From UHGV virus genome UHGV-0360783: 23,936 bases of DNA. One strand, 5' to 3'. The stretch comes from a virus. Both the position numbers and the translations under genes were made by a program. Numbering within the stretch: the stretch's first letter is position 1; the number at the start of each line of letters is the position of its first letter. The notes beneath the pieces are model-generated. The model had not been told where the DNA came from. It saw only the letters and a list, made by a program, of their open reading frames with translations, and searched no databases. This document shows positions 18,513-23,797 of this stretch, piece after piece.

Positions 18513-19243
18513 TTACATCATGTCTTTTTCTAAAAAAAGTCTTGATGAATATTGATGGGGAGGAACACCAAAATATCTTCTGAAAACACTTACAAAATAT
18601 GACGTGTTTTCATAACCGCATATCTCAGCAACTTTTCCAACAGAATATAAATTGTAGCTTAATAACCTTTCCGCCATCACCATTCGCTCTTCAAGAATTA
18701 ACTTACTAAATGATAAGCCTTCGTGCTTTAATTTTCTTTTTAACAGACTTTCACTCAGATACAGTCTTGAAGATATATCACAAAGTCTCCATGCTGCAGA
18801 TATATCCGTGTGAATAATAGCCTTAACTTTACTTCCTAAACTATTAAGACATCCAAATAAAAAACTTTGCACTATTTTCTCTGAAGATAAGATAGCAAGA
18901 CATGCAAGTGATATTTGATTTCTAACAAAATCCACAGTTCTGCCATCACAATTCAAGCATGCAATCAAGTTCTTTAACAATGAAAAATCTTCACATTCCA
19001 CCATCAAGTATGCCGGATAGAACCTTCTTACAGAAAAAGGTGAGAGTGTGTTGCTTTTAAAGAAATCATTAACTGTTTTCTCTTCAACATCTACGATCAT
19101 TACATGATCTATATTTGATGAAAAAAATCTTTTAAATTGTAATCAATGAGAACAGCACTTCCTTTTTTAAACAAAATATCTTCTTTACCAATTCGGACAT
19201 CAAACGAGTTCAACACCAAAATGATAGAACATATGTATGGCAT
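18513..19243 (-). pseudogene. AraC/XylS-family transcriptional regulator, split by a frameshift in a T7 homopolymer (N-terminal 44-codon ORF 19109-19243, main ORF 18513-19100)
   Basis: The C-terminal 100 aa (...LKRKLKHEGLSFSKLILEERMVMAERLLSYNLYSVGKVAEICGYENTSYFVSVFRRYFGVPPHQY) is a typical AraC-type HTH domain. My translation of the upstream minus-strand ORF gives MPYICSIILVLNSFDVRIGKEDILFKKGSAVLIDYNLKDFFHQI*. The two frames overlap at the A7/T7 run 19121-19127; one extra T would fuse them into an ORF of about 246 aa. Markedly AT-rich. Confidence 0.6.
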
Positions 19244-19594
19244 ATTATCCACCTGATATCATTGGGGTTACACCAGGTAAGTATAGGTGGAAAATCAATA
19301 TTCGCCAGTTCAACAATAAGGAAAATCTCATTGCATCACAAGTATAAAATTATGTATTTAACTCACAAAGACAAATTATTAAACCAATCTGTTATATTAT
19401 ATATAGCTGCGTGGAATCATAATATTATATATTTTGACTGGCATGTTTACCACCTTTAAGTTGCATCTCAATGGTTTCTTCAGCGTAAACAGAGTTTTTA
19501 TACAAACTGACACTCTGGGTATCATAGTGTAGTTTTTACGATTGTAAATATCCTGCATGCAGGAACTCATCCTTTTGGATGATATCGCATACAA

Positions 19595-20554
19595 TTAATT
19601 TACCATCAGTCTTAGAGCCAGTTCGTCCGGATAGGGATCGAAGTAATTCTGTGTAAGCAAGTAATCATTAGGATACTCACCCAGATAATGCTTCAGCAGA
19701 GTCAACGGCGCAAGAAGAGGTAATGTGCCAGAACGATAGTTAAGTATAACCTCGCTCAACTCTTTACGCTGGCGTGTACTTAAGTAGTTACTAAAATACC
19801 CCTGTATATGCATCAGCACATTCGTGTGATTTTTACGTGATGCAGGTTTTCTGAGAATCGCCATCAGCTTATCACGATACACCTCAAAGTATGATTCAAG
19901 GTCCGCCCACTCGTGTATTGCAGCCACAAATGGTCCCATATCTTTATAGCCTGCCTGACTATGCGCCAACAACTGAAGCTTATAACGACTATGAAAAGCT
20001 AATAACTCTCTTCTTGATAATTTCTCCTTGTAAAGGTGATTGAGCTCATGCAAAGCAAAAACTCTTTCAACAAAATTCTCACGAAGCACTGGATCATGTA
20101 ATCGCCCATCCTCTTCAACCGGTAGCCAGGAAAACTTTTCCATCAAAGTGCTCGTAAATAGTCCCACTCCATCTTTACGACCTCGATTACCATTTTCATC
20201 ATAGACACGCACGCGCTCCATGCCACAGCTGGGAGATTTAGCACAAACCACAAACCCCGATACATCCTTTAATTTGTCCATATAAGAACGACTAAACTCT
20301 GTCATTCTCTCTGTCACATCCTCATTCTGGTCGTGGCTGAAACACATCCGTATATTTCCTTGCGTCGAGCGCACAAGACGTAGAGCAGGACGCGGAACTG
20401 GCAGCCCTATAGCCATTTCCGGACATACTGGTCTGAATGTTACCCATTCCACTAATTTGTCCATTAAAAAGTCAGCTCTTTTGTGACCACCATCAAAACG
20501 AACAGCAGAGCCGGCCAAACAACCGCTGATTCCAATCACAGGTTTTTTTATCAT
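19595..20554 (-). CDS. DUF523-DUF1722 fusion protein (YbgA-like; DUF523 is the thiouracil desulfidase TudS family)
   Basis: 319-aa ORF MIKKPVIGISGCLAGSAVRFDGGHKRADFL...CPEMAIGLPVPRPALRLV...SPSCGMERVRVY... with the conserved Cys-containing motifs I associate with DUF523, and a C-terminal half resembling DUF1722. GGGGGAG RBS 4-5 nt upstream of the ATG. Domain assignment is from memory, not an HMM search. Confidence 0.8.
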   Translation of the reverse strand: MIKKPVIGISGCLAGSAVRFDGGHKRADFLMDKLVEWVTFRPVCPEMAIGLPVPRPALRLVRSTQGNIRMCFSHDQNEDVTERMTEFSRSYMDKLKDVSGFVVCAKSPSCGMERVRVYDENGNRGRKDGVGLFTSTLMEKFSWLPVEEDGRLHDPVLRENFVERVFALHELNHLYKEKLSRRELLAFHSRYKLQLLAHSQAGYKDMGPFVAAIHEWADLESYFEVYRDKLMAILRKPASRKNHTNVLMHIQGYFSNYLSTRQRKELSEVILNYRSGTLPLLAPLTLLKHYLGEYPNDYLLTQNYFDPYPDELALRLMVN

Positions 20555-20746
20555 ATTCTCCCCCTTGACTAATTCATTAACACATAAACTGTGTAGTGCA
20601 CGGAATAAATTGCCTTTCTGGCGTCATCACTGACAATTTTTCTGTTATAGACTATTCCTAATATAGTATGAAAGTTCTTTAAGTGATCGGTCGTAATCAT
20701 CTATCTTTCATACTTACTCTCAACTATCAAAAGTACAGGATTTATT

Positions 20747-21271
20747 ATGAAGTTATGGCCTGTGTTGACTGGCATTGCACTCTCTTTCACTCTTATAGCA
20801 TGTAAGGCCCCGACACCACCTAAAGGTGTGCAGCCGATTACAAATTTTGACGCCAACCGCTACCTCGGAAAATGGTATGAAATAGCTCGCCTCGAGAACC
20901 GGTTCGAACGTGGTCTGGAACAGGTCAGCGCTACCTATGGAAAACGGAACGACGGAGGGATTCGTGTACTTAACCGTGGATACGATCCAACGAAAAATAA
21001 ATGGAGCGAGAGCGAAGGTAAAGCATACTTTACTGGAGATACTAAAACTGCAGCGTTGAAGGTTTCGTTTTTTGGCCCCTTCTATGGTGGCTATAATGTA
21101 ATCAAACTGGATGATGAGTATAAGTATGCTCTTGTCAGTGGTCCGAACAGAGAATACCTATGGATTCTGGCAAGGACCCCAACTATTCCAGATAAAGTAA
21201 AAGCAGACTATGTGCGAACCGCTCAAAAGTTGGGATTCAATGTCAATGAATTATTATGGGTTAAACAATAA
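20747..21271 (+). CDS. Bacterial lipocalin (Blc-like) outer-membrane lipoprotein
   Basis: 174-aa ORF MKLWPVLTGIALSFTLIACKAPTPPKGVQPITNFDANRYLGKWYEIARLENRFERGLEQVSATYG...KVSFFGPFYGGYNVIKLDDEY...YLWILARTP... with lipobox LIAC and the lipocalin motifs of E. coli Blc (GxWYEIAR, SFFGPFYGGYNVI). AGGA RBS. Divergent from the DUF523 gene. Confidence 0.88.
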   Translation: MKLWPVLTGIALSFTLIACKAPTPPKGVQPITNFDANRYLGKWYEIARLENRFERGLEQVSATYGKRNDGGIRVLNRGYDPTKNKWSESEGKAYFTGDTKTAALKVSFFGPFYGGYNVIKLDDEYKYALVSGPNREYLWILARTPTIPDKVKADYVRTAQKLGFNVNELLWVKQ

Positions 21272-21300
21272 AATCCCTACCCGAAATAATACTTATTAGA

Positions 21301-21326
21301 AAAAAACCAGCCTTTGGGGAGGCTGG
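21301..21326 (-). terminator. Intrinsic terminator downstream of Q (tR'-like)
   Basis: Minus strand reads CCAGCCT-CCCCAA-AGGCTGG followed by TTTTTT (plus-strand hairpin 21307-21326, A6 at 21301-21306). Lies about 100 nt after the Q stop, where lambdoid phages place tR'. Confidence 0.55.
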
Positions 21327-22389: not shown

Positions 22390-22676
22390 GCCTTAATAAC
22401 CCCCTCTTTCAGCCAGATAACCTGTGTTCTCGCCATACCTTCCAGCGCGCATTCTTTTGCATATGCAGCATCGACAAAATGTGTGCGGCGGTCGATTTCG
22501 TCGTGGCAGGCAGAACATGCAATGGTGGCAATCAGGTCTGGCGGTTTGATACCGGTACCGCACAATCCAGCCAGCCGGATATGTGCCAGTACAGACGTTT
22601 CAGAATTGCCATTACATACGCCAGGGATTCTTACCTGGCATTCCCGACCACGCGCTGCTTTTCTCAAATCAGCCAT
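22386..22676 (-). CDS. ybcO: YbcO-like protein (DUF1364, putative nuclease)
   Basis: 96 codons from [67 protein letters not shown]..., with a GGAGG RBS 5 nt upstream. The track ORF has 13 extra codons. ATGA overlap with the rusA start. Confidence 0.85.
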
Positions 22677-22838
22677 GATTCCTCCTTGCTGCCAGTCGCA
22701 ACCATTTTTTATCAACCAGGCTAGCGGTATATCCGAGCAGTGTTGGTATTTCGGATGGCTTCAGCTCAGGCTTACGCTTACGACGATTTGATACTCTGTA
22801 GATGTGTCCGTTCATGACACGAATAAGCGGTGTAGCCA
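22668..22838 (-). CDS. ninE: NinE-like small protein (56 aa)
   Basis: My translation gives [56 protein letters not shown]. The ATG immediately follows the ybcN stop (TAAATG) and the 3' end overlaps the ybcO start. Below the track cutoff. Confidence 0.7.
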
Positions 22839-23294
22839 TTACGCCTCCTGCTTGTCGCGGAGCAGCTGGAACTCGCAGCTCTGCGGAATAGTCAGGTGGC
22901 AGCCAATATTCACCGCCCAGGCTTCAACCTTACACAGGAAGACATACATCTCTCCGGTATCAAGATCGGAGGTATGGCGTAACGACTGGATAGTGGTGAT
23001 ATCACCGGTTACGACATCAACCAGGTCTTTGGTTTCATAACCGAGATATGTGTGTTTGAGAGCATCTTTTACCCAAGCTGGAGTGGCGAACGTTTTACCC
23101 CTGCTGATGAGGTATTCACTGATTTCGCTGTACCACATGTGGCTGAGTGCATTCTGGGAAATACTGCGTTTCTCACGCCACGGTTTAAGCACCATGCGAA
23201 AGCATTTGCCCTCCTCCAGATAAGGCTGGATCTGCCGACCGATAGCGGTGAAGTTGCCGCGATGTAATTTGATGCCGTCTTGTGAGAGGTTCAC
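22839..23294 (-). CDS. ybcN: YbcN-like protein (DLP12 YbcN family, reported DNA base-flipping protein)
   Basis: 151-aa ORF (M)[61 protein letters not shown]... with a GTG start preceded by GGAGG. Confidence 0.88.
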
Positions 23295-23392
23295 GCTTCA
23301 CCTCCGCAGAGGTCAAACGCTAGATGCAAAGAATTGCAGGTGCATTTCTGCATCTGTGAAGGGAGAAGAGAGTTTGGATTGTATGTGCGCAT
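23291..23392 (-). CDS. Small ORF (33 aa), possibly YlcH-like
   Basis: My translation gives [33 protein letters not shown]. Its stop overlaps the ybcN GTG start (GTGA), suggesting translational coupling. Identity is not confirmed. Confidence 0.4.
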
Positions 23393-23508
23393 AAACGTCC
23401 CCGTTTAGCGCAGAAGTCACCGGAGTTGTTCAGGCTCCGGTAACATAATTATGCCGTGTTGATTTCCCAAAATCAAAATCGATAGAATTGCTCCTTCTTA
23501 AAACACTT

Positions 23509-23797
23509 TTACTCTCTGGAAGCTTTTCTTATCTCTCTTGGTGTTATATTAAAACGATTATGAAATCTTTCAGTAAAACGAGAAGGACACTTATAACCAT
23601 TTTCTCTGGCAATCTCGCTTATAGGTTTTACCGTCGTTTGTATAGCAGACAACGCATTATTTAACCTCACATCGTCCAGTATACTTTGGAAACTTACCCC
23701 CTCGCTTGCTAGACGGCGATGTAATGTAGAAACAGAAATGTAGAGATATCGAGCAACCTTGTTTGCTGTCCATTTTGTGCCGGGTTCGGATAGCAGC
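23509..23797 (-). pseudogene. 3' fragment of an AraC/XylS-family regulator gene (ybcM-like) truncated by the IS2 insertion
   Basis: My translation gives ...[95 protein letters not shown], an AraC-type HTH domain. There is no in-frame Met; the frame runs directly into the IS2 terminus at 23798. Confidence 0.7.

What the first reader, a model, noticed from the sequence alone, without database searches (positions are those of the whole stretch)
18513..23797. Both AraC-family regulator genes in this prophage are disrupted, by different mechanisms
The cargo-island AraC gene is frameshifted (19121-19127) and the ybcM-like AraC gene at the right edge is truncated by IS2 (23798), while the structural, lysis and Q genes are intact by inspection. 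Prophage AraC-like regulators in enteric bacteria often cross-regulate host acid-resistance or virulence loci, so independent loss of both may reflect selection against their activity in this host, or ordinary decay.
Basis: inference. Interest (0 to 1): 0.5.

Follow-up and report, generated by a model that had tools for sequence, protein, structure and literature searches.

The report
Two broken prophage AraC regulator genes
Both AraC-type regulator genes in this stretch of an E. coli prophage are broken, one by a one-base slip in a run of T's carried by roughly half of all sequenced copies, the other by a recent IS2 insertion seen nowhere else searched; this looks like ordinary, unlinked gene decay.

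Summary
The cargo gene (18513-19243, minus strand) is a 243-aa PatE/AppY-like AraC regulator. Here its T8 tract is T7 (plus-strand A-run 19121-19127), leaving a 44-aa stub and a 195-aa ORF. ybcM survives only as codons 170-265 (23509-23797), abutting the left end of IS2 at 23798. All 33 other complete genes in the window are full length.

The interpretation needs correcting.
- The frameshift is not specific to this host. At least 232 of 583 complete E. coli genomes carrying the gene have the T7 allele, about half in a systematic sample. It sits on at least four haplotypes that also exist as T8. T6 and T9 alleles also occur.
- The closest relative, GF131, has the same T7 haplotype with an intact ybcM, so the frameshift came first.
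- The IS2 junction was found in no other record, and ybcM is full length in 99% of genomes.
- This prophage type can carry a third AraC gene, appY, outside the window.

Best reading: unlinked, ordinary pseudogenisation, one lesion inherited at a mutational hotspot and one recent. Selection against the regulators is not needed and not shown. Interest is low.

The parts
18513..19243 (-). Pseudogene of a 243-aa PatE/AppY-like AraC-family regulator. It is a cargo ('moron') gene lying between the antiterminator Q gene and the holin gene. It is 731 nt here against 732 nt when intact, and 32% GC.
   Evidence: Alignment with the intact allele. Pfam HTH_18 and HTH_AraC. Full-length but sub-threshold match to the YdeO model. 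54% identity to Sakai ECs_0287 and 31% to AppY. GC content.
19121..19127 (-). Homopolymer tract, T7 on the coding strand; T8 in the intact allele. This is the site of the -1 frameshift, at codons 40-42.
   Evidence: The same deletion occurs in 9 of the 10 fetched copies that are 730 or 731 nt long. T6 and T9 alleles also exist.
19109..19243 (-). 44-aa N-terminal stub ORF (MPYICS...KDFFHQI) ending at a TAG created by the frameshift.
   Evidence: This exact peptide is on at least 1000 public contigs.
18513..19100 (-). 195-aa ORF starting at Met49. It keeps the linker helices and the whole DNA-binding domain but lacks the first four beta strands of the N-terminal domain. Its ATG lies 8 nt after the stub's stop, with no recognisable ribosome-binding site.
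   Evidence: The exact sequence is on 518 contigs. Secondary structure comes from the AlphaFold2 model, pLDDT 86.7.
18430..18451 (-). Terminator-like hairpin followed by a T-run, just downstream of the AraC gene and upstream of the holin gene.
   Evidence: This is a consensus match only, and the number of such sites in the region is no higher than in shuffled sequence.
23509..23797 (-). 3' remnant of ybcM (codons 170-265, the DNA-binding domain). The first in-frame start codon is a GTG at 23670, which would give only 53 aa.
23798..23936 (+). Left end of IS2 (IS3 family). The first IS2 reading frame (orfA) starts at 23890 and reads away from ybcM. The element is cut off by the end of the window.
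   Evidence: 136 of 139 bases identical to an annotated IS2 in L002. (matches to IS3-family transposase copies).
19595..21271 (.). The rest of the cargo island, both genes intact: a YbgA-like gene with DUF523 (2-thiouracil desulfurase family) and DUF1722 domains (19595-20554, minus strand) and a Blc-type lipocalin lipoprotein gene (20747-21271, plus strand).
   Evidence: The isolated phage IdasGreatGrand has genes of matching sizes and orientations in the same order, annotated only as hypothetical proteins; I identified only its AraC gene by sequence.

Best explanation
These are two unrelated, ordinary inactivations of dispensable regulator genes in a lambdoid prophage; in its relatives that prophage sits at the DLP12 (argU) site.

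(1) The PatE-like AraC cargo gene carries a T8-to-T7 replication-slippage deletion at codons 40-42.
- The tract is a mutational hotspot. The T7 allele has arisen, or reverted, several times and is now in roughly half of sequenced copies.
- The window inherited it with the prophage.
- The allele is most likely non-functional. The frameshift removes residues 1-48, which form four of the six strands of the N-terminal domain and are conserved across the family. T7 copies in other strains have picked up further frameshifts.

(2) ybcM was later cut at codon 170 by an IS2 insertion, possibly with an IS2-associated rearrangement.
- This separates the promoter and N-terminal domain from the DNA-binding domain.
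- The event was found in no other record and so is probably recent.
- The remnant has no usable start codon.

Shown directly: both lesions, their coordinates, their population frequencies, and their order as seen in the closest relative. Inferred: loss of function, slippage as the mutational mechanism, and absence of selection.
For: Lesions.

T7 is common.
- 232 of 583 complete genomes match the T7 89-mer exactly, against 240 for T8 (identity bands).
- A systematic sample of 32 high-identity copies gave 15 of 732 nt, 13 of 731 nt and 4 of 730 nt.
- Seven of the eight shorter copies fetched carry the same deletion and are annotated 'frameshifted'.
- The 44-aa stub peptide is on at least 1000 contigs and the 195-aa ORF on 518.

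The change is recurrent.
- T7 and T8 both occur on haplotype families A (654A), B (654A 669G 706T), B' (plus 165A) and C (72A 143C).
- All four marker combinations occur with SNPs about 50 bp upstream and 20 bp downstream of the tract.
- T6 is on 74 contigs and T9 on 8, plus 13 more carrying near-identical 53-aa peptides of the same cluster.

T7 copies keep decaying.
- Second frameshifts are found on T7 backgrounds, 81delA and 716delA.
- In strain 1517k an IS3-family element interrupts the same gene.

Order of events. GF131 differs from the window at 9 of 6298 bases, shares the T7 + 225C + 654A haplotype, and has an intact ybcM.

The IS2 event is unique among the records searched.
- No complete genome covers the junction.
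- There is no exact junction match in the GTDB species representatives or the JGI metagenomes.
- The junction-spanning ORF is not on record.

ybcM is normally intact. 3225 of 3255 genomes cover at least 80% of it, and 58 of 60 sampled copies span exactly 798 nt.

The lost N-terminal segment matters. Residues 1-48 form strands 3-10, 14-18, 21-25 and 30-34 of the model and hold family-invariant residues.
Against: - Within the window the only two lesions fall in the only two AraC genes, while 33 other genes are intact. At face value that is unlikely under random placement, roughly 0.2% by gene length. The test is post hoc, though: one site is a hotspot, and the lesion there was inherited.
- T8 copies show few other lesions, so the gene is probably useful where it is intact.
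- Genome counts are inflated by over-sampled clinical clones. Ten of the sampled T7 copies look like one lineage.
- Loss of function was not measured.
- The far side of IS2 is not visible.
Confidence: 0.75

Rival explanations
1. Adaptive loss. Expression of these horizontally acquired AraC regulators is costly or mis-wires host acid-resistance or virulence circuits, so null alleles are favoured. The double knockout here would be the product of such selection.
For: - Only the two AraC genes are hit among 35 genes in the window.
- The cargo gene is inactivated independently many times and in several ways: T7, T6, T9, IS3-family insertion, 81del, 716del.
- Relatives PatE, PsrA/B and AppY do reprogram gadE, hdeA and type III secretion (PMC10877973, PMC10057817).
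Against: - A T8 tract is expected to slip far more often than a base substitutes (established knowledge, not measured here), so recurrent loss needs no selection.
- ybcM, the second gene, is intact in about 99% of genomes, the opposite of what selection against it predicts.
- The two lesions arose at different times, since GF131 has T7 with intact ybcM.
- T8 alleles persist in about 45% of copies and in an isolated phage.
Confidence: 0.12
2. Phase variation. The T8 tract is a contingency switch that turns a PatE-like regulator ON (T8) and OFF (T7, T6, T9) reversibly, and the window happens to be in the OFF state.
For: - The tract lies early in the coding region.
- ON and OFF alleles are at similar frequency.
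- Both states occur on each of at least four haplotype families.
- Tract lengths of 6, 7, 8 and 9 are observed.
Against: - OFF alleles accumulate second, non-tract frameshifts (81delA, 716delA), as expected for dead genes rather than for a maintained switch.
- Eight T's is short for an efficient switch in a mismatch-repair-proficient E. coli (established knowledge).
- An AT-rich gene (32% GC) will contain such a run by chance.
- No within-strain switching data exist.
Confidence: 0.08
3. The genes are not really null. Translation re-initiates at Met49, 8 nt after the stub's stop codon, giving a 195-aa protein with the complete DNA-binding domain that acts as a constitutive or altered regulator. 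Alternatively, polymerase slippage on the T7 run restores some full-length protein.
For: - The 195-aa ORF keeps HTH_18 and HTH_AraC intact and starts 8 nt after the upstream stop.
- Isolated DNA-binding domains of some AraC-family activators are active when over-expressed (established knowledge).
Against: - No ribosome-binding site precedes Met49.
- Four of six N-domain strands are missing.
- Other T7 copies carry further frameshifts inside the 195-aa ORF region or its tail.
- T7 is below the run length at which E. coli RNA polymerase slips appreciably (established knowledge).
- For ybcM, the remnant's first start codon leaves only 53 aa.
Confidence: 0.05
4. The frameshift in this particular assembly is a homopolymer sequencing error.
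For: Single-base errors in A/T runs are a common artefact of some sequencing platforms.
Against: - The closest relative shares the T7 tract together with the otherwise rare 225C marker.
- The allele is in at least 232 complete genomes and at least 1000 contigs from many projects and platforms.
Confidence: 0.03

Closest known systems
PatE (z0321, OI-8 / prophage CP-933H of E. coli O157:H7 EDL933), taken here to be ECs_0287 of Sakai prophage Sp1
   Same: - A prophage-borne, roughly 245-aa AraC/XylS regulator.
- 54% identical over the full length, 126 of 235 residues with no gaps.
- Same domain layout.
- PatE activates gadE, gadBC and hdeAB and lowers expression of LEE genes (PMC10877973).
   Different: - It is a paralogue, not an orthologue.
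- It sits at a different prophage position; PatE is not in the Q-holin cargo slot.
- The window copy is frameshifted and its targets have never been tested.
- Equating ECs_0287 with PatE rests on its position in Sp1 and is an inference.
AppY of prophage DLP12 (E. coli K-12)
   Same: - The same prophage family carries it. GF131's version of this prophage has appY at its tail-fibre end.
- Same subgroup: 31% identity over 237 residues, including the N-terminal MxxxCS...SFD motif.
- AppY directly activates gadE and acid-resistance genes (PMC10057817).
   Different: - Distant in sequence.
- appY lies outside the window, so its state in the source strain is unknown.
- It is absent from strain 1517k.
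YbcM of DLP12
   Same: The remnant is identical to residues 170-265 of the YbcM allele found at 100% identity in K-12 MG1655-type genomes. It lies in the same position, between ybcL and the nin region.
   Different: It is truncated by IS2 here. YbcM's regulon has never been characterised (PMC10057817), so the consequence of losing it is unknown.
Rns / CsvR / ToxT class of AraC virulence regulators (solved structures)
   Same: The best full-length structural matches of the modelled intact protein are CsvR (9gfp), Rns (6xiu and related entries) and ToxT (3gbg and related entries), with Foldseek E-values from 1e-10 to 1e-6. They share the architecture of an N-terminal beta-rich domain followed by a double helix-turn-helix domain.
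   Different: - Only 16-20% sequence identity.
- TM-score about 0.4, which may reflect a different relative orientation of the two domains; per-domain fits were not computed.
- No evidence for a fatty-acid ligand.
Homopolymer-slippage pseudogenes and IS-disrupted genes in defective lambdoid prophages, for example the IS5-interrupted nmpC of DLP12 (from my own knowledge, not checked here)
   Same: Non-essential cargo genes of resident prophages are commonly lost through insertion sequences and small indels while the neighbouring genes stay intact.
   Different: One tract accounts for about half of all copies being frameshifted, and on several haplotypes. That proportion is unusually high.

Membership tests
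AraC/XylS family transcription regulator (cargo gene) | C-terminal domain of about 100 aa with two helix-turn-helix motifs | tested here: met
   Pfam HTH_18 (1e-14, 54.9 bits, cut-off 33.6) and HTH_AraC (2e-11). Both are present in the intact allele and in the window's 195-aa ORF.
AraC/XylS family transcription regulator (cargo gene) | A complete reading frame that joins the N-terminal regulatory domain to the DNA-binding domain | tested here: not met
   The T8-to-T7 deletion splits the gene after codon 41. The window copy is a pseudogene of this family.
YdeO (NCBIfam NF007407 equivalog) | Score above the curated cut-off of 348 bits | tested here: not met
   126.8 bits over the full length. 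It is related to YdeO but is not YdeO.
PatE/Psr/AppY group of prophage-borne regulators of acid resistance | Full-length sequence similarity to a characterised member | tested here: met
   54% identity to ECs_0287, taken to be PatE from its position. 31% identity to AppY.
PatE/Psr/AppY group of prophage-borne regulators of acid resistance | Activates the gadE and hdeA promoters or represses type III secretion | not testable with these tools
   This needs reporter or transcriptome experiments with the repaired T8 allele.
YbcM (DLP12) | Sequence identity and a conserved position between ybcL and ybcN | tested here: met
   The 96 remnant codons are identical to intact YbcM. The ybcN side is conserved. 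The ybcL side lies beyond IS2 and cannot be seen.
IS2 (IS3 family) | Terminal inverted repeat TAGACTGGCCCC... followed by the start of the first IS2 reading frame (orfA) about 90 bp inside the element | tested here: met
   136 of 139 bases are identical to an annotated IS2, and an ATG lies at 23890.
IS2 (IS3 family) | A complete 1.3-kb element flanked by a 5-bp target duplication, which would mark a simple insertion | not testable with these tools
   The window ends 139 bases into the element.
Phase-variable (contingency) locus driven by a simple repeat | A repeat tract in the 5' coding region whose length varies between strains and sets the reading frame | tested here: met
   T6, T7, T8 and T9 alleles exist. 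Both T7 and T8 occur on at least four haplotype families.
Phase-variable (contingency) locus driven by a simple repeat | OFF alleles stay otherwise intact, so the switch remains reversible | tested here: not met
   Four of the nine T7 copies fetched from other genomes carry a second frameshift outside the tract (81delA or 716delA).
Phase-variable (contingency) locus driven by a simple repeat | High-frequency reversible switching within a clone | not testable with these tools
   This needs fluctuation assays or deep sequencing.
Lambdoid prophage at the DLP12 (argU) site | Integrase next to tRNA-Arg (argU) at one end and ompT/envY at the other; the emrE-ybcK-ybcL-ybcM block | tested here: inconclusive
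   This holds in the relatives GF131 and 1517k. The window itself holds only the stretch from tail gene J to ybcM.

The most novel reading that the evidence does not exclude
The T8 tract at codons 40-42 of this PatE-like prophage regulator is a genuine slipped-strand ON/OFF switch. E. coli lineages carrying the prophage would then toggle a horizontally acquired regulator of acid resistance or virulence, which would explain why ON and OFF alleles coexist at similar frequency on every haplotype family. The window would simply be in the OFF phase.
Probability: 0.08. Interest if true: 0.55.

Novelty: already known. Interest (0 to 1): 0.2.

Why it matters
As a finding about this strain it matters little. 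Frameshifted and IS-interrupted cargo genes are routine in resident prophages, and public annotation already flags this very allele as 'frameshifted' in many genomes.

Two by-products may be useful.
- Anyone studying prophage AraC regulators of the PatE/Psr/AppY group should know that about half of the sequenced copies of this uncharacterised paralogue are T7 nulls. Strain choice will decide whether a phenotype is seen.
- The contrast between this gene (hypermutable and often dead) and ybcM (intact in about 99% of 3255 genomes although its function is unknown) suggests ybcM is the one under purifying selection, and so the better target for functional work.

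Tried and rejected
- First estimate of T7 frequency, rejected. I read the top of the hit table as '18 of 583 genomes have T7'. The table ranks by covered length, and a common SNP at the first base of my 89-nt query pushed most T7 genomes below the listed rows. The identity bands (232 for T7, 240 for T8), the spread sample and the fetched sequences corrected this.
- One cluster look-up was wasted on a mis-trimmed minus-strand reference (protein 1) and repeated correctly.
- Finding the other side of IS2 or the source genome gave nothing. I tried the junction query against complete genomes, an exact junction pattern in the GTDB representatives and the JGI metagenomes, and a look-up of the junction-spanning 73-aa ORF. 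A look-up of the 53-aa remnant ORF found only an unrelated ybcM lesion on a short contig.
- The primary PatE and PsrB papers (PMC3416394, PMC4288888) are not held, so I used two reviews and the AppY paper. I did not retrieve PsrA/PsrB sequences, so identity to them is not measured.
- Rfam found no RNA family in the window. The promoter and terminator scan was no better than shuffled sequence.
- Sequencing artefact was considered and rejected, because the closest relative shares the haplotype and the allele is widespread.
- A simple length-based probability argument for 'both hits in AraC genes' was considered and rejected as post hoc. It is also confounded by the hotspot and by inheritance of the first lesion.

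Full report
**What the window is.** The window holds the late half of a lambdoid prophage, with its genes on the minus strand. The order is tail gene J (cut by the left edge), tail and head genes, terminase, bor/iss, the lysis cassette (rzpD, rrrD, essD), a three-gene cargo island, antiterminator Q, the nin region (ylcG, rusA, ybcO, ninE, ybcN) and ybcM. In close relatives the same prophage lies between tRNA-Arg/intD and ompT/envY, which is the DLP12 site. No complete RefSeq E. coli genome contains the whole window. The best matches are strain 1517k (99.7% over the whole window) and GF131 (9 differences in the 6298 bases from 17500 to 23797).

**Observation 1, the frameshift.** The intact cargo gene is 732 nt and encodes 243 aa (WP_001146309.1; L001 5014-5745). 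The window copy is 731 nt. Translation from the normal ATG (19243, preceded by AGGTGG) now stops after 44 residues at TAG 19111-19109. A 195-aa ORF begins at Met49 (19100) and runs to the normal stop at 18513.

The protein is a true AraC/XylS member.
- Pfam finds HTH_18 and HTH_AraC.
- It matches the YdeO model over its full length at 127 bits, well below the 348-bit cut-off.
- It is 54% identical over its full length to Sakai Sp1 ECs_0287. I take that gene to be PatE (z0321, OI-8) from its position; this is an inference.
- It is 31% identical to AppY.
- It resembles YbcM only across the DNA-binding domain.

An AlphaFold2 model of the intact protein (pLDDT 86.7, pTM 0.82) has a six-stranded N-terminal domain followed by helices and the double helix-turn-helix domain. 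Residues 1-48 supply four of the six strands. Foldseek places the model with CsvR, Rns and ToxT. The N-terminal segment is conserved across the family, AppY included.

**Observation 2, ybcM.** Positions 23509-23797 encode residues 170-265 of YbcM, identical to the intact gene. At 23798 the sequence becomes the left end of IS2 (TAGACTGGCCCCC...), 136 of 139 bases identical to an annotated copy. The first IS2 reading frame starts at 23890 and reads away from ybcM. The first in-frame start codon in the remnant is a GTG that would give 53 aa. The window ends inside IS2, so it cannot show whether this is a simple insertion or a rearrangement.

**Everything else is intact.** All 33 other complete genes align full length and without gaps to the annotated proteins of strain 1517k.

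**How common is the frameshift?** My first reading, 18 of 583 genomes, was wrong. A frequent SNP at the first base of the 89-nt query pushed most T7 genomes below the listed rows.
- The identity bands show 232 of 583 genomes matching the T7 89-mer exactly and 240 matching the T8 version.
- A systematic sample across the ranking of whole-gene hits gave, among 32 high-identity copies, 15 of 732 nt, 13 of 731 nt and 4 of 730 nt.
- I fetched eight of the shorter copies. Seven carry the same T8-to-T7 deletion and are annotated 'frameshifted'.
- Exact-sequence look-ups put the T7-specific 44-aa stub on at least 1000 public contigs and the 195-aa ORF on 518. The T6 stub is on 74 contigs and the T9 stub on 8, plus 13 more carrying near-identical 53-aa peptides of the same cluster. 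T5 and T10 stubs are absent.

The allele is real, widespread, and not a private sequencing error. The counts are by genome, and over-sampled clinical clones inflate them: ten sampled T7 copies look like one lineage.

**Is the change recurrent?** A site table of 19 copies shows T7 and T8 on the same haplotype backgrounds.
- L020 (T8) and L005 (T7) are otherwise identical (654A 669G 706T).
- L018 (T8) and L010 (T7) share 165A.
- L003 (T8, 654A) pairs with the window and GF131 (T7, 654A 225C).
- L014 (T8) pairs with L013 and L015 (T7) on the 72A 143C background.

All four combinations of tract state with the SNPs at positions 72 and 143, about 50 bp upstream and 20 bp downstream of the tract, are present. 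Repeated slippage explains this far more simply than recombination within such short distances. The tract is a mutational hotspot in an AT-rich gene (32% GC against 52.7% for the window).

**Are T7 copies dead?** Probably.
- Four of the nine T7 copies fetched from other genomes carry a second frameshift, 81delA or 716delA.
- In strain 1517k the same gene, with a T8 tract, is split by an IS3-family element.
- In the window the Met49 ATG has no ribosome-binding site, although it lies only 8 nt past the stub's stop codon. Low-level re-initiation cannot be excluded.

The intact gene also occurs in an isolated phage, IdasGreatGrand, at 98.8% protein identity. It lies there between the Q-like gene and the holin gene, next to genes whose sizes and orientations match the window's two other cargo genes; those neighbours are annotated only as hypothetical proteins.

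**Order and independence of the two lesions.** GF131 shares the window's exact T7 haplotype, including the otherwise unseen 225C, and has an intact ybcM. The frameshift therefore predates the IS2 event.

The IS2-ybcM junction was found nowhere else. It is absent from the 5426 complete genomes, the GTDB representatives and the JGI metagenomes, and from an ORF look-up.

ybcM is otherwise very stable. 3225 of 3255 genomes cover at least 80% of it, and 58 of 60 sampled copies span exactly 798 nt.

**Interpretation.** YbcM's regulon is uncharacterised (PMC10057817).

The inference that the double loss reflects selection in this host is not supported. One lesion is an inherited, common hotspot allele. 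The other is a single recent IS2 event in a gene that is almost never broken elsewhere. The phrase 'both AraC genes in this prophage' also overstates the case, because GF131's copy of the prophage carries an intact appY beyond the window's left edge while 1517k lacks it. Ordinary, unlinked decay is the best explanation (confidence about 0.75). The rivals are adaptive loss (0.12), a phase-variable switch (0.08), residual function (0.05) and artefact (0.03).

**Novelty and interest.** Both lesion types are textbook, and public annotation already marks this frameshift. The only mildly new point is the population picture. A single T8 tract leaves about half of all copies of an uncharacterised PatE-like regulator frameshifted on several haplotypes, whereas the neighbouring ybcM is conserved. 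Interest 0.2.

Noticed in passing
window 16704-16712: A poly-C tract (C9) lies about 115 nt upstream of the bor/iss serum-survival lipoprotein gene (16829-17122, plus strand). Its length varies between relatives: C10 in L001 and L002, C9 in L003 and L004. It might affect iss expression.
   Followed up: partly
window 22027-22389: rusA (Holliday-junction resolvase) is intact here, in GF131 and in 1517k. In strains WP2-W18-ESBL-10 and isolate 68 it is frameshifted by an extra base at the position matching window 22296 (written +C on the window's plus strand).
   Followed up: partly
L008 1-6103 (GF131, NZ_CP172134.1 1196000-1202102): In the closest relative, the prophage's major capsid gene is interrupted by a block encoding a primase-like protein, an SSB, its own capsid and decoration proteins and an AlpA-type regulator. 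This looks like a capsid-encoding satellite inserted into the prophage. The block is absent from the window, where the capsid gene is intact.
   Followed up: no
window 19595-21271: The Q-to-holin cargo slot, where Stx phages carry stx (from my own knowledge, not checked here), holds a Blc-type lipocalin lipoprotein gene (316 bits to the Blc model) and a YbgA-like gene with DUF523 (2-thiouracil desulfurase family) and DUF1722 domains, next to the AraC gene. Phage IdasGreatGrand has genes of matching sizes and orientations in the same order; I did not compare those neighbours by sequence. The function of this trio as a unit is unknown.
   Followed up: partly
ybcM across E. coli: ybcM occurs as two allele groups: at least 99% identical to the query in 672 genomes, and about 91% identical in 2583 genomes, mostly near 2 Mb on the chromosome. 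Almost every copy is exactly 798 nt. That is strong conservation for a prophage gene of unknown function.
   Followed up: no
L003 24513-26580 (strain 1517k): In the genome that best matches the whole window, the same cargo AraC gene has a T8 tract but is split by an IS3-family element. This is a further independent way of losing the gene.
   Followed up: partly
window 23798-23936 relative to 21430-23400: IS2 sits between the early region and the nin-Q block, which is transcribed leftward. Depending on antitermination, it could be polar on delayed-early transcription reaching Q and so impair induction of this otherwise intact-looking prophage. This is inference only.
   Followed up: no
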